From a phage: a stretch of 64,000 nt of DNA. A program made the translations under genes and the position numbers. The DNA lies in the NCBI GenBank assembly GCA_029220445.1, contig GCA_029220445.1_3666.1. One strand, written 5' to 3'. Positions within the stretch are counted from its first letter, which is position 1. Each line of letters begins with the position of its first letter. The notes beneath the pieces were generated by a model. That model had not been told where the DNA came from, did no database searches, and worked only from the letters and a program-made list of their open reading frames with translations. Positions 10,400 to 55,473 of the stretch are shown here, piece by piece.

Positions 10400-11160
10400 T
10401 TATTTTATCTGTAACAATAAGGCAACTATGCAAACGAATGGCATGGCGCGACGGAGTCGCGACATAATATAAAAGCAGTAACCATCACCCCCGTGATAGT
10501 TTGTCTGCAAACTATTAATCAGATCATAGTTGCCTTGTATTTAGTTAATCATGACATAACAAGCAAGGCAACTATAGATCTGCTAATAGTTGCCCTGCTT
10601 TTATATTATGTCACCTATTGTAAACCAGTTAATTGTCAGCTTGTTGGCTGTTAGCTTGTCAATTGTTATCTTGTTAATTGTTTTCATGCAAACGAATGGC
10701 ATGGCTTATCATCTCTGTGTAAACAGTCAATCATGTAAATGATAAGTATGTTAACAGTTATCCATGTAAACTATTAGACATGTAAACTATTGAGAATGTA
10801 AACAGTAAAGGGCGTGAACAGTAAGCGAGGGAATAGTAATAGCGTGAATAGTGACAGCGTAAACAGTCAGGCATGTCAATTAAGTCTAAAGTGTCAAAGG
10901 TGTCATATTATGTCACCAGTATGCCCAGTATGTCAGACAAGTTTTTCTCCTCTTTGTCAAGTGCTGCATGAAAAATTTACAAGCTGGTATGGTAGCATTT
11001 TTGCGGTCCTGTTTACATTCAGTAATGTATGTATAATCCTTGTTGTGTGGGCGCTTAGACGTCTAGACGGTTGGAAGTCCACAGGTCAATATCTAATCTA
11101 TCGGCTGCTAACTATATCCCACACAAATAGTAAGAAATATAATTGTTATGTGTGTAAACA
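10400..11160. repeat. iteron/palindrome array in gene-free region (GGCAACTAT x4 in inverted pairs; 20-bp direct repeat ATGCAAACGAATGGCATGGC x2; ~10 copies of GTAAACAGT/ATGTAAACTATT-type iterons)
   Basis: Direct and inverted repeats read from sequence; no credible ORF; candidate replication origin or regulator-binding array. Confidence 0.6.
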
Positions 11161-11459
11161 GTAACTCATGTTATCAATCCCTGTATGTATCGCCAGTGGT
11201 GCGCATAATGGGTATTATGTTAAATTGCCCGTAATGATAATGGTTCTCACAATGATATGTATTCTCATTCCCCCACACAAAATAGATTGCAAATGTTGTG
11301 CCACTGTGTGAACGGCCTCACCTATTAATTTGCCTCACTGCCTCGATATTTGAGAATTGTTATAAGAATGAGAATGATTCCCATTTCGTCCGCCTGGCAG
11401 CACTCCTGTAGGACAAGCACAAAATCGTGGCATAGCTGGACCTGTTCAGATATTTCTGG

Positions 11460-11700
11460 CTGGCTCTTCAGGTCTGTGTGGGAAAAGCCAACCCCCTCCG
11501 GCGGCGGGGAGGGTGTCAATTAAAAAATTTACGGGGTATATGAAGCGCTCTTCAGGTAAGGCATGTACTATGGGATGAAACCCTCTTCAGGCAATGATAT
11601 TTGTGGGTGTGATATTTGCTGGAAAGCCAGATATGACGGGACTCCCGGCGGGGCAGGGGTAGTACAGACAGGGAAAATATGGGGATGTAGTTGGGTGAAT
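11460..11700. repeat. GC-rich palindromes (ccctccggcggcggggaggg; cccggcggggcagggg) with recurring CTCTTCAGG motif
   Basis: Motif at about 11463, 11547, 11583 and again near 11996; region lacks ORFs. Confidence 0.45.
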
Positions 11701-12355
11701 TGATCGGGCAGGTAGAGTATGGAATATGTTACAAGTATGTTAAATATGGAGGGTGAATATCTGCAGGATTTGTGTGTAAAATCAAAGACTTAAGTAGTGT
11801 TGTGGTATTTTCTATAAATAATTCAAGTTTAATAGGTAATATTTGTCTCTATCCACTTTGTGTGGTAAACAAATTCAAATGAGATTGGTTTACAAGTGTA
11901 TACATAATATACAAATTAAAGATACAAGAAACCCCCCCTCCCCCTTCGGCTACCATTCACCTTTTCCTCTGACTGGTACTTAAACACTTATTCAGACTCT
12001 TCAGGTTATCACCCATATACCATATGGCAGTGACTGGTGTCCTCCGGCCCCTCTTTCGTCACCCGTCCGCTTCGCCATGCTAATGCCATAGCCAAATGTT
12101 CGGTTGTTCACCCTGTTCACTCAGGTGTATCTCCATACCCCTTCAAACCGAAGAGAACAGAAAACCCGAATTACTCGGTAAAAGAAAAGAGAAGAACTTA
12201 ATTTTATCAGGATAGGCAAGAATGTCAAGGCATGACTGCTCACTAAACAAGCAAACAGTCATGTGTGGGAGGTAAGTGATTGTGGTGGTAGGAAATTTAG
12301 TTGAAAGATGTGTTATAGGTGCTTCCAGCACTTTAGCCTGGCAGCTAATTGTGTG

Positions 12356-12571
12356 TCAGTCCAGCGGTTCATCCTCTACTTCACTGAAATCAATGTTCAT
12401 GGTCTCTTCCCAACCATCGATCTCAGCACAAGAGTGGAGTTCTTTAGGGTTTACTCCCAAAGCCTCAGCAACAGAGTCTATATTTAACACCTCTGGCAGG
12501 TATGATTCATCGAATTCAAGGTAAATCAGGCCACGAGTGTTGTCAACTCCACCAAATATTTCTATCTTCAT
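12356..12571 (-). CDS. small acidic protein (72 aa), member of MK[IV][KE]-start acidic family
   Basis: ATG 12571 with AGGAGA RBS (track start 12637 is upstream extension); acidic C-terminus. Confidence 0.45.
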   Translation of the reverse strand: MKIEIFGGVDNTRGLIYLEFDESYLPEVLNIDSVAEALGVNPKELHSCAEIDGWEETMNIDFSEVEDEPLD

Positions 12572-12691
12572 GAAATCTCCTCTGGAAATGAGAGTGTGAA
12601 CAGGGTTTATACGTTCCAATGCACTGGAATTATGCACGTTTGCCTCTTCAGACCATGCTTTAGCATGAGGAACCTGTGTGGGCTCGGTGCT

Positions 12692-13105
12692 TCATAGTCT
12701 ACCACCCCTGAACTCTTCGTGCTCAGGCATAATAGAGAACCAGATATCTACGATGTCTTCCCACGTTAGGTCATCAGCCTCAGGATCTACCTGGAGCGAA
12801 GATGGAGAATCTTCAGAATCGAAGTTTTCCTCTTTCACTGGCTCAGCCAAGGGACATATAGTCACTCCTTTGGATGTCTCTTCAAATGCATGTGTGTTTA
12901 TCATGTTCCACCCGTGAGTATTCCGGCAACAGCCACTATGGACGTAATGATCATCAGGATCACCACCAAAACCTCTGACAATGTTTTCATTGTGTGTCCC
13001 ATATTCTCCAAACGATGTGTGGATACTATCACTGGAGCGGAAATGTGTCAACAGAAACGTCGCGAGGGTTTGGTTAAAATCCGAGCGTATGGTGATTTGG
13101 GTCAA
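12692..13105 (-). CDS. hypothetical protein, start uncertain (up to 137 aa)
   Basis: ORF with acidic C-terminal half; no clear RBS; may start at internal Met (12904). Confidence 0.3.
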   Translation of the reverse strand: MTQITIRSDFNQTLATFLLTHFRSSDSIHTSFGEYGTHNENIVRGFGGDPDDHYVHSGCCRNTHGWNMINTHAFEETSKGVTICPLAEPVKEENFDSEDSPSSLQVDPEADDLTWEDIVDIWFSIMPEHEEFRGGRL

Positions 13106-13264
13106 AACGGACGTGCGTTCTCGCTACGCTCGAAATATAAAGTTGTTTGTAGGAAGCTCTTAAACGCTCTGTAATGAGATTAACTACCCAAGGTATTCAA
13201 TCGTGCACCAGACAAAGAAAAGGACGCCACAGAGCGTCCTAGGTGTCTTAAATTTGATATTTTG

Positions 13265-13564
13265 CTATACCCATGAGGGCTTATCAAGGTTGGAGTAGCT
13301 AAAAGGTGTCAAAAGGTGACTGTCAAAATCTCTCAAACTATCCAGATCTTTTTCCTCGTCCTGGCACCATCTGTGCCTACATTTATTGTTGTAGTGCATA
13401 GAATGCATAGCGTTCTGCAACTTAACAGGTACAAGTGATTCAGGAGTAGATAGTATTGTTGGGTATGCCAGAACCACCTCAAACAGTGGAAACACATCGA
13501 AACTAAAGTCTACCTCTGCAGAGGTTGATGGCATATAGGAGTATTTAGCCGCCTTTGTAGACAT
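13265..13564 (-). CDS. hypothetical protein (99 aa)
   Basis: ATG 13564 with GAGGTGG RBS. Confidence 0.45.
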   Translation of the reverse strand: MSTKAAKYSYMPSTSAEVDFSFDVFPLFEVVLAYPTILSTPESLVPVKLQNAMHSMHYNNKCRHRWCQDEEKDLDSLRDFDSHLLTPFSYSNLDKPSWV

Positions 13565-51788: not shown

Positions 51789-52139
51789 ATGAAAGATGGG
51801 GATAAGCTGCTATATCTTAAAGTCCCCCTTGAAATACTGTCTATGTCAAAAGTTTTGAATGACACAACTGGGGAGGTTGTTGTTCTTGACTTGTATGACA
51901 AGATCGTATACTGCTACCTGCACAACTGGTATAAACTTGGAGGAAATTCACGCTTCACACCCAGCACAAGGAAAATTGCAGCAGATGTTGGGATAAAGAA
52001 AACAAAAGCAGCAGCGTGCGTTAAAACTTTAGAATGTGCAGGATTGGTTGAAACATCCACACAGGGGAGAGGTAAAAGATGCACATTTTCCAAAGTTTTG
52101 CCACCAGAAAAAGTTATTCGAATGTCAACAACTGGTTAG
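51789..52139 (+). CDS. helix-turn-helix DNA-binding protein (116 aa)
   Basis: STRKIAADVGIKKTKAAACVKTLECAGLVE HTH/winged-helix-like segment; upstream of palindromic operator array. Confidence 0.55.
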   Translation: MKDGDKLLYLKVPLEILSMSKVLNDTTGEVVVLDLYDKIVYCYLHNWYKLGGNSRFTPSTRKIAADVGIKKTKAAACVKTLECAGLVETSTQGRGKRCTFSKVLPPEKVIRMSTTG

Positions 52140-52213
52140 ACCAGTAAAAACTTAAATATCTGTACTATAAGGATTCGTATGTTTTATGTTCGCTCTGGAA
52201 CAGAGGTTAGTAA

Positions 52214-52297
52214 CTGTCCGTGATACGGACACTACTGTCCGTCACGCGGACACATCTGCCCGTAATACGGACACTAACTGTCCGTGATACGGACACA
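52214..52297. promoter_or_regulatory. array of four palindromic operator-like sites (GTCCGTnAnACGGAC) at ~21-22 bp spacing
   Basis: Four tandem copies read from sequence, each an inverted repeat; followed by AT-rich inverted repeats to ~52440. Confidence 0.65.
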
Positions 52298-52439
52298 TAA
52301 AGAATATAACTAAAATAACTAAATAATAAAAAATAAAAGATCTAGTACTTATGGTACTAAAGTACATATACTTAACTTATGTAGAATATACTAGATCCTA
52401 AGTACCATGTTTTAAATTTATTACTTACTGTAGGTAGTG

Positions 52440-52740
52440 TCGGCCCTTCATTGGCACTCGCCTACGAGGGGCGAGATGCCGGGCCTCCGTAGTGCACACA
52501 TGCAGGTCTGTTAACATGTGTGGGAGCGAAGCGATAGCGCAGGCCAAAGGCCGAGCACTAATGTGGACCACCGACGAAAGCTTGCCAGCGCCGTAAGGAG
52601 TCGGTTGAGAGCCTCCCGCGCGAGTTTGGATAAAGTTTATGTGTGGAAACGGACAATGAGGCCCCTAAATCGCTCCACAGCCATATAAACTATACCAAGT
52701 AAGGCAATCGCACCAGTTTGATAGAAAAGCTCGTTACAAA
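52440..52740 (+). ncRNA. GC-rich, ORF-free island with multiple hairpins; candidate structured RNA or structured 5' leader of ORF 52783
   Basis: Local GC well above neighbouring sequence; stems cacacatg/catgtgtg, ctcgcc/ggcgag, ggcc-aaa-ggcc; no ORF of 60 aa or more on plus strand. Confidence 0.3.
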
Positions 52741-52782
52741 GCGATACAGTGAGTTTTTCTATAACTTGAAGAGGAGGCAGCT

Positions 52783-53361
52783 ATGAGTCCACGCAAAGAT
52801 GACCGTGAAAAGATTGCAAAACGTTATCAGAATGAAGAACAGATGGAGAAAACTTTCAAGTGGAAGCCAGGTTTCCAGCGTAATCATTCTAACGCTCGTG
52901 ATCGTAAGCATCCGGATAAGTGGTTAACACCGCCAAATGATGGCATGCAGGTTGGTGATGAGAAGGAGCTGTCACCTGGAAAAGATGGCAACTACATTCG
53001 CACTAAGGAAGCAGGTCCAAAGGATGACAGCTATCTTGTAGATAAGGTTCTTGATGGTATTGATGTAGATGTTGACACTGCACGAAACCTTTTTCTTGGT
53101 TGGTATCGTACAGGGTTTTTCGACATCAAGGCGATTCGTCGTGTTTGTGATATTAAAAAGTCTGCCTATGATGATGACTCTCTACATCGCACTCTGAGAC
53201 AATACTCAGAGAGATACGGTCATCCAGTTATCACTCTTGACGATATTAACGAAGTGATGTATCATGCAGAGGTTGTTGCAGGTAGATTCGGTGATGCATA
53301 TCTCGGTATTCTTTCTGCAAAAGATGAGGTGATGTTAAATAAAATTTACTATGAACGCTGA
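52783..53361 (+). CDS. hypothetical protein (192 aa)
   Basis: ORF with GAGGAGG RBS. Confidence 0.55.
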   Translation: MSPRKDDREKIAKRYQNEEQMEKTFKWKPGFQRNHSNARDRKHPDKWLTPPNDGMQVGDEKELSPGKDGNYIRTKEAGPKDDSYLVDKVLDGIDVDVDTARNLFLGWYRTGFFDIKAIRRVCDIKKSAYDDDSLHRTLRQYSERYGHPVITLDDINEVMYHAEVVAGRFGDAYLGILSAKDEVMLNKIYYER

Positions 53362-53560
53362 GGAGCGCTTAATGAACAACCCGGTAGCAAAGAACTGTAA
53401 TAAGTTCAACAAGTCTGCAATTCACACTGACAGGAAAAAGAGCTGGTCTCCTGACATTGACGAGGAGCTTGAGAGTTACTTTGAAGACCTGGTCACTAAT
53501 GCAGATGAGGTTGCGATTAAAGAATACGCAGACAGGAAGGATAAGGCCGGAATCTGTTGA
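53351..53560 (+). CDS. hypothetical protein (69 aa)
   Basis: Start overlaps upstream stop; TGA stop embedded in next -35. Confidence 0.45.
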   Translation: MNAEERLMNNPVAKNCNKFNKSAIHTDRKKSWSPDIDEELESYFEDLVTNADEVAIKEYADRKDKAGIC

Positions 53561-53585
53561 CAAAAATAGTGTTACCTGATAAGAT
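53557..53585 (+). promoter_or_regulatory. sigma70-like promoter (TTGACA-N17-TAAGAT)
   Basis: Hexamers upstream of ORF 53637. Confidence 0.55.
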
Positions 53586-53636
53586 CTGCAATATGATGTG
53601 ATGCAATTTTAACTTACGAGGTCTACAGGTAATGCT

Positions 53637-53879
53637 ATGTTTAAGGTTAAGCTCGTTTTTCGTTCCATGAATGAGGATTATTTAGAAGATGAAGGTGAAT
53701 TTCGTGCACTGGATGATGCAATAGATTTTGCCAACGACTTAGCTTGTATGAATACAGGTTATGGGCTATGTTGTTGGGATGGTGGTGTTCAGATCGGTGA
53801 TAGCAAGATCTTCTACTTCTACCCTGAGCCTGATAACAAACAAATTAAGTATGTTTTATTTATTTGTGCTTTACAATGA
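53637..53879 (+). CDS. hypothetical protein (80 aa)
   Basis: ORF downstream of promoter. Confidence 0.5.
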   Translation: MFKVKLVFRSMNEDYLEDEGEFRALDDAIDFANDLACMNTGYGLCCWDGGVQIGDSKIFYFYPEPDNKQIKYVLFICALQ

Positions 53880-53939
53880 GGTTGTTTTCGTGTATCATGA
53901 TTAATATCCAATTTAAAGATGAATTTGATGGCTTTATCT

Positions 53940-54165
53940 CTGGATGCTTTGAAACAGGGTTCGGAGAAGGCTGAGTTCCCCTTAGAGGGCTTGATAGTGC
54001 ACCACACTTAAAATGGTAGGGGCAGCCAGCACATGACGATGTGACCCCAGCCAACCTGTAACAAGGTCGAGCCGAAGCGCGGGTAATAGGCCTCTGGTAA
54101 CCCACTTGTTGGGTCTTGCTGGTCCAGGACGCTGGACAAGTCGCAGGGAATACCACCCTGCGGCG
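53940..54165 (+). ncRNA. GC-rich, ORF-free island with nested hairpins (two GACG-loop hairpins); candidate structured RNA
   Basis: Stems cacat-gacg-atgtg, gtccag-gacg-ctggac, caggg-aatacca-ccctg and long-range ggctg/cagcc pairing; preceded by TTTACA-N17-TATCAT promoter-like sequence. Confidence 0.3.
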
Positions 54166-54168
54166 AAC

Positions 54169-54197
54169 TTGACAATCAGTATTTGCTATGATAAAAT
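54169..54197 (+). promoter_or_regulatory. sigma70-like promoter (TTGACA-N17-TAAAAT)
   Basis: Hexamers upstream of ORF 54226. Confidence 0.6.
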
Positions 54198-54225
54198 CCA
54201 CCTATCACGTGATAATGGAGGAAAC

Positions 54226-54564
54226 ATGGCGGATACAACTAAAAAGCGTCGCCGTAGAGGCAGACCTCTGAAAGAGGAGTCCAACGCCATTCAGCTAGAG
54301 AAGAACATCCTTGATATGAAGGAATCTTTTATAGCGATGGTTCCAGAAGCTCACAAAGTTTTAAGAGAGCTGATGTTGGACCCGAAAACCAAACAAAATA
54401 TTCGTCAAAGCATTGCAGAGTATGTTCTTGATAAGGCAGACCGAATGCAGGAAGAATATGATGAGATGTTTGGTGAAGAGGAAGAGGTGGTAGTGGAAGA
54501 GGCTGAAAAACCAGCACCTTTTATGCCATTTACTACAGAAATACAGCCTGTTAGCAATAGCTAA
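54226..54564 (+). CDS. DNA-binding-like protein with basic N-terminus and acidic C-terminus (112 aa); candidate small terminase subunit
   Basis: ATG 54226 with GGAGG RBS; KKRRRRGRP N-terminus; TerS call is from position and composition only. Confidence 0.45.
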   Translation: MADTTKKRRRRGRPLKEESNAIQLEKNILDMKESFIAMVPEAHKVLRELMLDPKTKQNIRQSIAEYVLDKADRMQEEYDEMFGEEEEVVVEEAEKPAPFMPFTTEIQPVSNS

Positions 54565-54660: not shown

Positions 54661-54735
54661 GCCCTGTTAGCTTAGTGGATAAAGCAGCGGCCTTCTAAGC
54701 CGTTGACACTGGTTCGAGTCCAGTACGGGGTGCCA
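54661..54735 (+). tRNA. tRNA-Arg (anticodon UCU)
   Basis: Manual cloverleaf: acceptor gccctgt/acggggt, anticodon loop cttctaa, T-loop ttcgagt, CCA encoded. Confidence 0.8.
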
Positions 54736-54739
54736 AATT

Positions 54740-54826
54740 GGGGAGTTATCCCGTAGAGGTAGCGGTGTAGACTGTAAATCTATTGTCATTGCGACTCGGG
54801 TGGTTCGACTCCACCACTCCCCACCA
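54740..54826 (+). tRNA. tRNA-Tyr (anticodon GUA), type II with long variable arm
   Basis: Acceptor ggggagt/actcccc, anticodon loop ctgtaaa, T-arm ggtgg-ttcgact-ccacc, CCA encoded. Confidence 0.7.
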
Positions 54827-54940
54827 AATTTATATTTTTAGATGCATAAATAATACAGATAATGGCATTGATATTTATCGTCGTTTATACTAGTCACTAA
54901 CTGCTCGAAAATCAGTGTCATTATCAGTATAATTTATAAA

Positions 54941-55031
54941 GGAGGGTAGGGAGCAATGGTGCTCAAGCGGTCTTGAAAACCGTCCCGTTGAGGATGACTC
55001 GATGATGGTTCGATTCCATTACTCTCCGCCA
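54941..55031 (+). tRNA. tRNA-Ser (anticodon UGA), type II with long variable arm
   Basis: Acceptor ggagggt/actctcc, anticodon loop cttgaaa, T-loop ttcgatt, CCA encoded; position 8 is A (unusual). Confidence 0.65.
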
Positions 55032-55129
55032 CATTGTTGACCTTGTAATTAAGCGAAAGCCGGAAGCAGAACCGGATTATCAAATGTTACAGTCGTCATC
55101 GCCGACTAGCAACATGGTCAACATACTGA

Positions 55130-55226
55130 GCTAGGTAAGCCCTTTGGCAAGGGCGAGGATTTTTAATCCTGAAAATAGACGAGGTAGTCGTTGAATACAT
55201 AGGTGGTTCGATTCCATCACCTAGCA
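55130..55226 (+). tRNA. atypical tRNA-like element (97 nt): normal acceptor, D and T arms, 4-bp anticodon stem with loop tttttaa (UUU, Lys-like) and ~30-nt extra arm; may be a pseudogene
   Basis: Acceptor gctaggt/acctagc perfect; D arm gccc-tttggcaa-gggc; T arm ggtgg-ttcgatt-ccatc; no CCA. Confidence 0.35.
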
Positions 55227-55233
55227 CCTTTTT

Positions 55234-55309
55234 GCTGATGTAGCACAATCGGTAGTGCAATTGATTTGTAATCAATAGGTTGTAGGTTCAAGTCCTGCCA
55301 TCAGCACCA
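55234..55309 (+). tRNA. tRNA-Thr (anticodon UGU)
   Basis: Acceptor gctgatg/catcagc, D stem gcac/gtgc, anticodon arm attga-tttgtaa-tcaat, CCA encoded. Confidence 0.8.
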
Positions 55310-55310
55310 A

Positions 55311-55385
55311 GGCCCTGTAGCTGGAAGGTTCAAGCAAGCGACTCATAATCGCCAGACGGTGGTTCAATTCCACCCAGGGCCACCA
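55311..55385 (+). tRNA. tRNA-Met (anticodon CAU; elongator, or Ile2 if lysidine-modified)
   Basis: Acceptor ggccctg/cagggcc with G1-C72, anticodon loop ctcataa, T arm ggtgg-ttcaatt-ccacc, CCA encoded. Confidence 0.7.
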
Positions 55386-55396
55386 AATAGTAAATA

Positions 55397-55473
55397 CTCC
55401 GCGTAGCTCAGCTTGGTAGAGCGCCTGATTTGGGATCAGGAGGTCGAGTGTTCGAATCACTCCGTGGAGACCA
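55397..55473 (+). tRNA. tRNA-Pro (anticodon UGG)
   Basis: Acceptor ctccgcg/cgtggag (C1-G72 as in tRNA-Pro), anticodon arm cctga-tttggga-tcagg, T-loop ttcgaat, CCA encoded. Confidence 0.8.

What the first reader, a model, noticed from the sequence alone, without database searches (positions are those of the whole stretch)
52440..52780. GC-rich, ORF-free structured island upstream of ORF 52783
About 300 nt of markedly GC-rich sequence with several strong hairpins and no plus-strand ORF sits between an AT-rich region and the RBS of ORF 52783. Sharp compositional contrast plus dense secondary structure points to a structured non-coding RNA or a long regulatory 5' leader. I could not match it to RNase P, tmRNA, hammerhead or other motifs by eye.
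Basis: seen in the sequence. Interest (0 to 1): 0.6.

Follow-up and report, generated by a model that had tools for sequence, protein, structure and literature searches.

The report
Conserved structured element beside phage origin
The GC-rich island is a real, conserved, folded non-coding element in no known RNA family; it sits next to a probable replication origin in rV5-like coliphages and recurs in small capsid-encoding E. coli plasmids, but its function is still unproven.

Summary
The window is an rV5-like Vequintavirus. The island is real. Positions 52440-52660 are 57.9% G+C, in the top 0.05% of windows. The stretch just before it is 24% G+C.

It contains a 56-aa GTG ORF annotated as rV5 gp074. 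That ORF has no coding signature and a premature stop in a relative.

Single-sequence folding is unremarkable (z = -1.4 to -2.1), and Rfam has no match. The evidence for structure comes from homologues. The island recurs, with insertions of whole hairpins, in the non-coding region of about 13.5-kb circular E. coli "plasmids". These encode a capsid protein, a tape measure protein, a Dit-like tail protein and an O-like Rep.

Between the phage and plasmid versions, stems are kept by compensatory changes, for example ACCGAC/GUCGGU versus GCUGCC/GGCAGC. A 25-nt apical loop is nearly invariant, and G:U pairs place the fold on the + strand.

In every carrier the island starts right after a winged-helix Rep-like gene, that carrier's own iterons and an AT-rich stretch. 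In the plasmids a sigma-70 promoter lies downstream of it, so there it is not a 5' leader.

Best reading: a new origin-adjacent structured RNA. The same strand acting as single-stranded DNA is less likely. Function is unproven.

The parts
51789..52139 (+). Context: 116-aa winged-helix protein (rV5 gp075), a putative replication initiator or DNA-binding regulator.
   Evidence: PHROG 12838 'replication initiation protein' at E = 4e-79, with weaker hits to phrogs 8102, 428 and 270. Pfam HTH_36 scores 26.4 bits against a cut-off of 25. RefSeq names it 'replication initiation protein'. In relative L003/L005 it is replaced by an unrelated 143-aa winged-helix protein.
52211..52296 (.). Context: four iterons of 21-22 bp, each holding the palindrome TGTCCGTNANNCGGACA. 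Start-to-start spacing is 21, 21 and 22 bp.
   Evidence: L003 has a different repeat family, and the plasmids have two further unrelated ones.
52297..52438 (.). Context: AT-rich stretch (24% G+C) between the iterons and the island. It is a candidate DNA-unwinding region.
   Evidence: It is not homologous between the window and L003, and homology resumes exactly at 52439/52440.
52441..52487 (+). Helix Ha, the 5' hairpin: GGCCC-UUCAUU-GGCA-CUCGCC-loop-GGCGAG-A-UGCC-GGGCC.
   Evidence: Folds at -28 kcal/mol. Plasmid L008 keeps it through two double changes: GGCA/UGCC becomes GUCA/UGAC, and CUCGCC/GGCGAG becomes CUCUCC/GGAGAG. Other plasmids carry a different G/C-rich hairpin at this position.
52495..52522 (+). 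Helix P2, the variable hairpin closed by CACACAUG/CAUGUGUG. Most relatives carry an 18-nt longer version.
   Evidence: The short allele is in the window and rV5, and the long allele in most other phages; both fold as a hairpin closed by CACACA/UGUGUG. In the plasmids this position holds one to three extra hairpin modules.
52518..52622 (+). Core domain, closed by GUGUGGGAG (52518-52526) pairing with CUCCCGCGC (52613-52621). Inside are Hb (52531-52540) and a phage-only hairpin GGCC-AAA-GGCC (52542-52552). Hd is ACCGAC (52570-75) paired with GUCGGU (52600-05), topped by the near-invariant loop GAAAGCUUGCCAGCGCCGNAAGGA (52576-52599).
   Evidence: 90.3% of cells are paired, against 31-41% when partners are slid. 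Six pairs change on both sides, and three pairs of Hd show A:U/G:U/G:C, C:G/U:A and A:U/C:G exchanges. The covariance model R1 finds exactly one copy per element: window 121.7 bits, plasmids 100-110 bits, divergent L013 45 bits.
52640..52646 (+). Second copy of the UGUGUGG motif. The phage has 2 copies and the plasmid versions have 3-5, each followed by two or three small hairpins.
   Evidence: family D2.
52662..52670 (+). Motif CCCCUAAAU, conserved between phages and plasmids. UAAA is invariant; L003 ends in C.
52672..52681 (+). Helix Hf: GCU-CCAC-AGC.
   Evidence: It reads GUC-AUCU-GAC in L003 and GGCC-UUCU-GGCU in the plasmids. Pair 22:27 is U:A in 7 sequences and C:G in 5; pair 21:28 is C:G in 13 and U:A in 1.
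52683..52695 (+). Helix He: AUAUA-AAC-UAUAC. It occurs only in the phage versions.
   Evidence: It reads GUGUG-AAC-UACAC in L015 and AUGCA-AAC-UGCAC in L003. Three pairs change on both sides. The rival long-range pairing I7 is broken in L015.
52721..52762 (+). Helix Hg, the 3' hairpin: AUAGAAAAGCUC...GAGUUUUUCUAU. It is the last part shared with the plasmids and ends 8 nt before the Shine-Dalgarno sequence of ORF 52783.
   Evidence: (I8, 12 nt, 92% complementary). The plasmid counterpart is CUCUAAAUCG-CGUUAGAAU-CGAUUUUAGAG, with the same CGUUA loop start.
52518..52688 (+). The annotated ORF (rV5 gp074, 56 aa, GTG start), judged spurious.
   Evidence: Variable sites by codon position are 14/18/14. 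L003 has a stop at codon 42. There are no PHROG or Pfam hits.

Best explanation
The island is a new family of conserved, multi-hairpin, non-coding element that folds on the + strand. It spans about 52440-52765: roughly 325 nt here, and about 450-650 nt in the plasmid versions.

It forms the constant right-hand part of a three-part module: a winged-helix Rep-like protein, that protein's own iterons, and an AT-rich stretch, followed by the structured element. rV5-like phages share this module with a family of about 13.5-kb capsid-encoding E. coli plasmids.

My most likely reading is that it is transcribed rightwards, like every neighbouring gene, and acts as a structured RNA tied to the adjacent origin. 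It could be the primer, R-loop or loading region where DNA synthesis starts after the initiator opens the AT-rich stretch. Alternatively it could be a platform that recruits a replisome or host factor through the invariant 25-nt three-way-junction loop and the repeated single-stranded UGUGUGG motifs.

Shown: non-coding, conserved, covarying, strand-specific, and always next to iterons.
Inferred: that these modules are origins, that the acting molecule is RNA, and the role in replication.
For: 1. Homology outside the phage genus, with structure-preserving changes.
- The plasmid versions keep the stems by double substitutions and insert whole hairpins.
- Across the core domain, 90% of cells are paired against 31-41% in slid controls, and no shuffle of 500 reaches the observed covariation score.
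- Hf and He show the same pattern. Ha, P2 and Hg are kept as hairpins.

2. Strand specificity. There are invariant U:G pairs in the closing helix, and G:U intermediates in Hd, Hb and Hf. These would be A-C mismatches on the minus strand.

3. RNA-like details. The apical GNRA loop alternates GUAA and GGAA. The plasmid modules contain cUUCGg loops.

4. Constant position. The element begins right after the AT-rich stretch in carriers with four unrelated iteron families and three unrelated winged-helix proteins that give replication-initiator hits.

5. For the plasmids, this is the only Rep-like gene and iteron array on the replicon.

6. It is not a leader and not coding.

7. It was present in 119 of the 120 rV5-like records that carry ORF 52783.
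Against: - No sigma-70 promoter or intrinsic terminator brackets the island, and there are no transcript data.
- The folded strand could equally be displaced single-stranded DNA.
- That the Rep/iteron modules are origins is inferred from weak profile hits and architecture only. The rV5 paper could not locate an origin.
- Other Vequintavirinae genera lack the module at the syntenic place, so it may be accessory rather than the phage's main origin.
- Phage-to-phage conservation of the island is no higher than that of the flanking genes.
- Covariation rests on few independent lineages: about 6 phage types and 7 plasmid types. Parts of the fold remain ambiguous, namely whether UGUGUG pairs with CACACA in P2 or with GCGC in the outer closing helix, and whether the long-range GGGCCUC/GAGGCCC pairing exists.
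Confidence: 0.45

Rival explanations
1. A single-stranded DNA structure of the origin. After the initiator melts the AT-rich stretch, the displaced + strand folds into these hairpins. They then serve as a single-strand initiation or primosome-assembly signal for a host or phage primase, or stabilise the open complex. This would resemble ssiA/ssiB in RSF1010 oriV, or the G-site downstream of R1 oriR (my own knowledge of those systems).
For: It shares the positional evidence of the best explanation: iterons, then AT-rich stretch, then element, in all carriers. The fold is strand-specific. No promoter or terminator flanks the island. The phage sequence contains GCGAAGC (52527-52533), a motif I recall as an unusually stable DNA mini-hairpin.
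Against: At 325-650 nt the element is several times longer than known single-strand initiation signals. It has invariant U:G pairs inside helices, GNRA and cUUCGg loops, and variable-length helices, which are typical of RNA. The GCGAAGC motif is lost in L015 and in the plasmids.
Confidence: 0.18
2. A trans-acting structured RNA unrelated to replication. It could be a decoy or sponge for a host protein or defence nuclease through its repeated UGUGUGG and loop motifs, or a large phage RNA of the GOLLD/ROOL kind. Phage and plasmids would both carry it because they face the same host.
For: The architecture is modular, with 2-5 repeats of a single-stranded motif between hairpins. The apical loop is invariant. 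The neighbourhood is an RNA-centred early region with RNA ligase, kinase, phosphoesterase and a tRNA cluster. As I recall, a Vequintavirinae-related phage, PhiTE, uses an RNA mimic (pseudo-ToxI) against an abortive-infection system.
Against: This does not explain why the element always abuts iterons and an AT-rich stretch across four different iteron types. There are no tandem identical repeats of the ToxI type. No own promoter or terminator was found.
Confidence: 0.17
3. A packaging (pac) signal read as DNA. The plasmids would be satellites that copy the helper phage's pac site, and ORF 52783 might be the unidentified small terminase.
For: Only two other, much shorter matches (56 nt and 24 nt) join the plasmid and this 64-kb window, so the island is the only extended shared sequence; satellites classically share the helper's packaging site, as P4 shares cos with P2 (my own knowledge). 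rV5-like phages package by the headful/pac route, and no pac site or small terminase is annotated. The late operon with the large terminase starts about 3 kb downstream. The plasmids encode a capsid protein and tail parts but no terminase or portal.
Against: A double-stranded protein-binding site gives no reason for compensatory changes in hairpin stems, G:U asymmetry or insertion of whole hairpins. ORF 52783 has no detectable terminase similarity, and its AlphaFold model was too poor to test (pLDDT 48.7).
Confidence: 0.08
4. A cis-regulatory 5' leader controlling translation or stability of ORF 52783.
For: The island runs up to 8 nt before the Shine-Dalgarno sequence. It lies on the same strand as the gene. 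The 3' hairpin Hg is highly conserved among phages.
Against: The plasmid homologues have no ORF 52783 homologue, and sigma-70 promoters sit between the element and the next gene. A 50%-identical homologue of ORF 52783 has no upstream island. Hg does not cover the Shine-Dalgarno sequence.
Confidence: 0.07
5. A protein-coding gene (rV5 gp074, 56 aa), or a functionless remnant.
For: The ORF is annotated in rV5 and many relatives. It is intact in most close relatives.
Against: There is no excess of third-position variation (14/18/14). L003 has a premature stop. The plasmid homologues have 4-5-nt indels. No family hits were found. Covariation argues against a functionless remnant.
Confidence: 0.03

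Closest known systems
ColE1-type RNA II primer precursor, and the R-loop origins of phage T4 (oriF/oriG) and T7
   Same: A long, highly structured transcript next to the point where DNA synthesis starts. It acts in cis, and its fold rather than a protein product is under selection.
   Different: Those origins have no initiator protein or iterons, and their promoter is well defined. Here no promoter was found, there is no sequence or Rfam similarity, and the element lies on the far side of an iteron and AT-rich module.
Single-strand initiation signals beside iteron origins (RSF1010 ssiA/ssiB, the R1/R100 G-site, the phage G4 complementary-strand origin)
   Same: The order iterons, AT-rich stretch, then strand-specific hairpins. 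Function depends on one strand only.
   Different: Known signals are about 40-140 nt with one to three hairpins. This element is 325-650 nt with at least seven helices, RNA-type loops and an invariant 25-nt junction loop. No sequence similarity was tested or is known.
Large phage-associated RNAs of unknown function (GOLLD, ROOL)
   Same: Several hundred nucleotides long, many helices, carried by phages near tRNA genes, with no known function.
   Different: No match to their Rfam models. This element is much narrower in distribution, covering one phage genus and one plasmid family. It is coupled to iterons.
Cis sites shared by satellite and helper phage (the P4/P2 cos site)
   Same: The only extended sequence common to a small capsid-related element and a large phage.
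   Different: cos and pac sites are read as double-stranded DNA and show no stem covariation. That the plasmids are satellites of rV5-like phages is itself untested.
ToxI / pseudo-ToxI antitoxin RNA (type III toxin-antitoxin systems; phage PhiTE)
   Same: A non-coding RNA carried by a related large myovirus and by plasmids, with a repeated-motif architecture.
   Different: ToxI consists of near-identical 36-nt tandem repeats next to a toxN gene. Here there are no tandem repeats in the island and no toxin gene.

Membership tests
Any Rfam 15 family (RNase P, tmRNA, 6S, SRP, riboswitches, ribozymes, group I/II introns, C4/CI RNA, GOLLD, ROOL, Y RNA and others) | A covariance-model score at or above the family's gathering threshold. 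| tested here: not met
   Only tRNAs reach threshold in the window. With permissive filters on 52100-54300, the best hit is rli43 at 26.5 bits against a threshold of 100, and it lies mostly upstream of the island (52222-52478). The plasmid homologue also gives nothing.
tRNA / tmRNA | A cloverleaf or tRNA-like domain detected by ARAGORN. | tested here: not met
   ARAGORN finds genes only at 54661-55473.
Protein-coding gene (rV5 gp074) | An ORF kept intact in relatives, with variation concentrated at third codon positions. | tested here: not met
   Variable sites by codon position are 14/18/14. L003 has a stop at codon 42. The plasmid homologues carry frame-breaking indels.
Structured non-coding element (generic) | Base pairs maintained by compensatory substitutions in independent lineages. 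| tested here: met
   In the core, six pairs change on both sides, 90% of cells are paired against 31-41% in slid controls, and no shuffle of 500 reaches the covariation score. Hf and He have five pairs changing on both sides.
Iteron-type replication origin module | Direct repeats at helical spacing next to an AT-rich stretch and a gene for the cognate initiator. | tested here: inconclusive
   The window has four 21-22-bp repeats, a 24% G+C stretch and a winged-helix protein with replication-initiator profile hits. The same layout occurs in L003 and the plasmids. Origin activity itself was not tested.
ColE1-type primer RNA | A defined promoter a few hundred nucleotides upstream of the origin, and an RNase H-processed RNA-DNA hybrid at the start site. 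| tested here: not met
   No promoter-like site was found at 52300-52440. Hybrid formation cannot be tested here.
Single-strand initiation signal (G4, phiX or RSF1010 types) | Priming by primase or a primosome on the folded single DNA strand. | not testable with these tools
   Only the architecture is comparable. The element is longer than known examples.
Type III antitoxin RNA (ToxI-like) | Tandem near-identical repeats of about 35-45 nt next to a toxN-like gene. | tested here: not met
   Tandem repeats occur only in the iterons and the AT-rich region, and none in 52440-52780. There is no toxin gene nearby.
5' leader / cis-regulator of ORF 52783 | Co-occurrence with the regulated gene, and a position inside its transcript. 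| tested here: not met
   The plasmid copies lack the gene and lie upstream of promoters. The L004 homologue of the gene lacks the element.
pac site with an adjacent small terminase | A terminase small-subunit fold or family in the adjacent gene, and packaging series starting here. | tested here: inconclusive
   ORF 52783 gives no family or PDB hit. Its AlphaFold model was unusable at pLDDT 48.7. No read-start data are available.

The most novel reading that the evidence does not exclude
The about 13.5-kb circular E. coli 'plasmids' are an undescribed family of plasmid-borne satellites of virulent rV5-like phages. They carry a capsid protein, a tape measure protein, Dit-like and neck proteins, but no terminase or portal. 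The shared structured RNA would be the handle through which they plug into the helper. It could be a cis-acting RNA that recruits the helper's replication machinery, or, like phi29 pRNA, its packaging machinery. That would make it an RNA-based rather than protein- or DNA-site-based link between satellite and helper.
Probability: 0.15. Interest if true: 0.85.

Novelty: new variant of a known kind. Interest (0 to 1): 0.62.

Why it matters
If the reading holds, three things follow.

1. **A new RNA family.** It would add a covariation-supported structured RNA family that is absent from Rfam. The family is present in nearly every sequenced rV5-like coliphage, a genus widely used in phage therapy and O157 biocontrol. 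It would also correct a spurious gene call (gp074) that has been copied into about 100 genome records.

2. **A candidate origin.** It points to the first candidate replication-origin module in this genus, whose origin the rV5 genome paper could not find. The design is unusual: interchangeable initiator and iteron cassettes joined to one constant structured element.

3. **A phage-plasmid link.** It ties these virulent phages to a small family of capsid-encoding plasmids that nobody seems to have described. That makes a possible new satellite-helper system directly testable.

Tried and rejected
**Known RNA families.** Rfam at gathering and permissive thresholds gave nothing on the window, the plasmid homologue or the second ORF-poor region.

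**Single-sequence folding.** It was not significant, and both strands fold alike.

**Searches for more relatives**
- 'Distant' blastn against phages found only the genus itself, at 87-100% identity.
- A protein search with ORF 52783 was also genus-restricted. Its 50%-identical relative has no island.
- Exact-pattern scans of the viral collection returned one chance hit in an actinophage tail gene, then nothing for the plasmid-type 3' motif. A degenerate gapped pattern gave 33 loci, none confirmed by the covariance model.
- A species-representative genome scan gave only chance matches in Collinsella and others, with no flanking similarity.
- Other Vequintavirinae genera and phi92 were checked at the syntenic place. 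The module is absent and the model finds nothing.

**Pairings considered and dropped**
- A long-range helix GGGCCUC/GAGGCCC, supported only by one-sided changes.
- The palindrome GUGGACCAC as a hairpin or kissing site. Its covariation rests on L003 alone and overlaps Hd.
- The 13-nt inverted repeat I7, which is broken in L015.
- The RNAalifold consensus of the phage-only set, which gave implausible long-range pairs.

**The small-terminase idea.** ORF 52783 has no family or PDB hits, and its AlphaFold model had pLDDT 48.7. No fold search was run.

**Literature.** Searches for an rV5 satellite, origin, non-coding RNA or transcriptome found nothing relevant.

**The Alma phage copy (L016).** It was left out of the codon-position count because it has homopolymer indels that also split the neighbouring gene.

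Full report
**What the window is.** Megablast of 52100-53400 finds 120 phage records at 90-99.7% identity. All are rV5-like myoviruses of the genus Vequintavirus, including 18 records labelled 'Campylobacter phage'. In the rV5 RefSeq record the neighbourhood reads as follows:
- RNA ligase 1
- a kinase-like ATPase
- a phosphoesterase
- a 116-aa 'replication initiation protein' (gp075)
- a 56-aa hypothetical protein (gp074)
- a 192-aa hypothetical protein (gp073, which is ORF 52783)
- small genes and then a tRNA cluster

**Checking the observation.**
- The compositional island is real. Positions 52440-52660 are 57.9% G+C, against a window mean of 42.5%. Only 0.05% of 221-nt windows reach this value, and the 150 nt before it are 24% G+C.
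- The last 120 nt before the ribosome-binding site are of average composition.
- The statement that there is no plus-strand ORF is not literally true. A GTG-initiated 56-aa ORF lies at 52518-52688 and is the annotated gp074.
- The predicted structure of the single sequence is not remarkable. The z-score is -2.05 for 52430-52785 and -1.43 for 52439-52700, and the minus strand gives -2.06.
- On the window alone, therefore, the case for a structured RNA would be weak.

**No known family, and not a gene.**
- Rfam gives only the tRNAs at gathering threshold and nothing credible with permissive settings. ARAGORN finds nothing in the island.
- For the gp074 frame, the variable sites among ten phage copies fall 14/18/14 on codon positions 1/2/3. 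Nearly every substitution changes the amino acid, and relative L003 has a stop at codon 42.
- The ORF has no PHROG or Pfam match.

**Relatives within the phages.**
- The island is found in 119 records, all in the genus, at 87-100% identity. Most carry an 18-nt longer allele in one hairpin.
- A more distant relative from IMG/VR and Logan (L003/L005) has 83% amino-acid identity in ORF 52783. In it, the winged-helix gene, the repeats and the AT-rich stretch are replaced by unrelated sequence with its own repeats. Homology resumes exactly at GTCGGCCC, position 52439/52440.
- Identity of the island between these two phages is 69-90% per 60 nt, similar to the flanking genes. Phage-to-phage conservation alone therefore says little.
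- A 50%-identical homologue of ORF 52783 in another contig has no upstream island.
- Other Vequintavirinae genera and phi92 lack the whole module after the phosphoesterase gene.

**The key result: homologues on small plasmids.**
- A 'distant' blastn against complete E. coli genomes hit four small plasmids, in stretches with no annotation. PLSDB and a metagenome scan added more.
- The carriers are NZ_CP020521, NZ_CP035869, CP148565, CP134895, NZ_CP178698, NZ_CP043822 (assembled as a trimer) and two metagenome contigs of 13.9 and 15.5 kb.
- These circular elements of 13.2-13.7 kb encode the following:
  - an HK97-type major capsid protein
  - a tape measure protein
  - a Dit-like tail protein
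  - a neck/tail-completion protein
  - two helix-turn-helix proteins
  - a 303-aa winged-helix protein with weak matches to lambda-O-like replication initiators
- They have no terminase or portal.
- Their capsid protein is only about 22% identical to those of 140-150-kb myoviruses.
- The homologous element lies in a 2-3-kb gene-free stretch, directly after the plasmid's own iteron arrays and a short AT-rich segment. It lies upstream of the strong sigma-70 promoters that precede the next operon.
- Only two other, much shorter matches (56 nt and 24 nt) join the plasmid and this 64-kb window, so the island is the only extended shared sequence.

**Evidence for a fold.** Aligning phage and plasmid versions shows blocks of near identity separated by insertions that are themselves hairpins.

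| Helix (window coordinates) | How it varies |
|---|---|
| Hd (52570-75 with 52600-05) | ACCGAC/GUCGGU in phages, GCUGCC/GGCAGC in plasmids, UCCGGAU/AUCCGGA in the most divergent plasmid L013. Three pairs switch between A:U, G:U, G:C or C:G and U:A. |
| Loop on Hd (52576-52599) | GAAAGCUUGCCAGCGCCGNAAGGA is invariant except for L013 and for N, which keeps a GNRA loop (GUAA or GGAA). |
| Closing helix GUGUGGGAG/CUCCCGCGC | Contains two invariant U:G pairs. It becomes GGAAGA/UCUUCC in L003. |
| Ha (5' hairpin) | Kept in plasmid L008 through two double changes. |
| Hf (52672-81) | GCU/AGC in the window, GUC/GAC in L003, GGCC/GGCU in the plasmids. |
| He (52683-95) | Covaries among the phages. |
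| Hg (3' hairpin, 52721-62) | Has a plasmid counterpart with a different stem sequence and the same CGUUA loop start. |

- Across the core, 90.3% of cells are paired, against 31-41% when partners are slid by 1-3 columns. Six pairs change on both sides, and no shuffle of 500 reaches the observed covariation score.
- G:U pairs in several helices would be A-C mismatches on the other strand, so the fold belongs to the + strand.
- A covariance model of the core finds exactly one copy per element. It finds none in the rest of the window, in the other genera or in 32 loci fetched with a loose pattern.
- The number of independent lineages is small, so these figures show that a structure is conserved but do not fix every helix.
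- I could not decide whether UGUGUG pairs with CACACA (hairpin P2) or with GCGC (the outer part of the closing helix).

**Architecture.**
- The motif UGUGUGG(G) occurs twice in the phage element, at 52517 and 52640, and three to five times in the plasmid versions. Each copy is followed by two or three short hairpins, some capped by cUUCGg.
- The plasmid versions thus look like the phage version with extra modules.

**Position.** In every carrier the element starts immediately after an AT-rich stretch that follows an array of direct repeats.

| Carrier | Repeat family |
|---|---|
| Window | Four 21-22-bp repeats with the core TGTCCGTNANNCGGACA, at 52211-52296 |
| L003 | GATACATATTTGCATCAG-type repeats |
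| Plasmids | CGGTAAATATTTCC-type repeats |
| Plasmids | TATCAACATATCAATNTGATATA-type repeats |

- Each repeat family comes with a different winged-helix protein giving replication-initiator profile hits.
- For the plasmids, this is the only plausible origin on the replicon.
- This constant coupling to interchangeable initiator and iteron cassettes is the main reason I tie the element to replication.

**What I conclude, and how sure I am.**
- Shown: the island is a conserved, non-coding, strand-specific folded element of a new family, shared by one phage genus and one plasmid family, and always next to an iteron and AT-rich module.
- Inferred: that these modules are origins, that the acting molecule is an RNA transcribed with the surrounding rightward genes, and that it works in cis at the origin as a primer, R-loop or loading region or as a recruiting platform.
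- I give this reading 0.45.
- The same strand acting as single-stranded DNA fits the position equally well, but fits the length and the RNA-type loops less well (0.18).
- A trans-acting RNA unrelated to replication (0.17) does not explain the coupling to iterons.
- A pac site copied by satellite plasmids (0.08) is attractive for three reasons:
  - the island is the only extended shared sequence
  - the phages package by the headful route
  - no small terminase is annotated

  But stem covariation is not expected of a double-stranded site.
- The 5' leader reading (0.07) and the coding or remnant reading (0.03) are contradicted by the plasmid context and by the codon analysis.

**Comparison with known systems.**
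- By architecture it most resembles two things. One is origin-linked structured transcripts such as ColE1 RNA II and the T4/T7 R-loop origins. The other is single-strand initiation signals placed after iterons and an AT-rich stretch, as in RSF1010 ssiA/ssiB and the R1 G-site.
- It is a member of none of these. There is no sequence or model similarity, no defined promoter, and a much larger and differently built fold.
- I therefore rate it a new variant of a known kind, not a member of a described family.

**Limits.**
- No transcript data, no functional data and few independent lineages.
- The fold is only partly resolved.
- The nature of the 13.5-kb plasmids was inferred from gene content alone.

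Noticed in passing
L010 (NZ_CP020521.1, whole record); also L009, L011-L014, L028, L030: A family of circular E. coli 'plasmids' of 13.2-13.7 kb, found in 4 of 5426 complete genomes plus PLSDB and metagenome records. They encode a major capsid protein, a tape measure protein, a Dit-like tail protein, a neck/tail-completion protein and an O-like Rep. They have no terminase or portal, and 2-3 kb of each is gene-free. They look like a phage satellite or mini phage-plasmid. I found no description of them in the literature searched.
   Followed up: partly
window 10700-13400: A second ORF-poor region of about 2.6 kb, unannotated in rV5. It has its own repeats (GTAAACAGT....CATGTAAAC, five or more copies at 10719-11175) and six + strand TGTGTGG motifs at 11044-13016. 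CCCACACAAATAG occurs twice, and a near-identical motif precedes the island homologue in the plasmids. Hairpins at 12320-12350 resemble plasmid modules. There is a strong sigma-70 promoter on the minus strand (12228 to 12201). Rfam gives no hit. This may be a second locus of the same modular kind.
   Followed up: partly
window 53900-54165: A second GC-rich (51.5%), gene-free island lies between a promoter-like site (TTTACA-17-TATCAT, 53870-53898) and a near-consensus promoter (TTGACA-17-TAAAAT, 54169-54197). It is 95-97% identical in the divergent relative L005. Its fold z-score is -2.2. There is no Rfam match and no E. coli match.
   Followed up: partly
window 55130-55228: An odd 99-nt tRNA-like gene sits inside the tRNA cluster at 54661-55473. 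ARAGORN calls a 4-base anticodon, Rfam scores it only 35.5 bits, and one relative annotates it as tRNA-Lys.
   Followed up: no
window 52492-52510 versus relatives (e.g. L002 3392-3427): The window and rV5 carry an 18-nt deletion between the direct repeats GTGCACACA and GTGCATACA, relative to most genus members. The hairpin is kept in both alleles.
   Followed up: yes
search result (records MG0656xx): Eighteen INPHARED records named 'Campylobacter phage' are rV5-like coliphage genomes at 96-99.7% identity to this window. They are probably mislabelled or contaminants.
   Followed up: no
L071 (MZ501093.1 1-3113), about 3 kb downstream of the island in genome order: The late operon starts with spanins and a large terminase interrupted by a homing endonuclease. 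No small terminase is annotated in these phages. ORF 52783 (192 aa, genus-restricted, no family hits) was considered as a candidate but could not be tested.
   Followed up: partly
window 12829-12884 versus L010 10882-10937: A 56-nt stretch, 82% identical (18 aa at 61% identity), is shared between the plasmid Rep gene and a 137-aa minus-strand ORF (12692-13105) in the phage's second ORF-poor region.
   Followed up: partly
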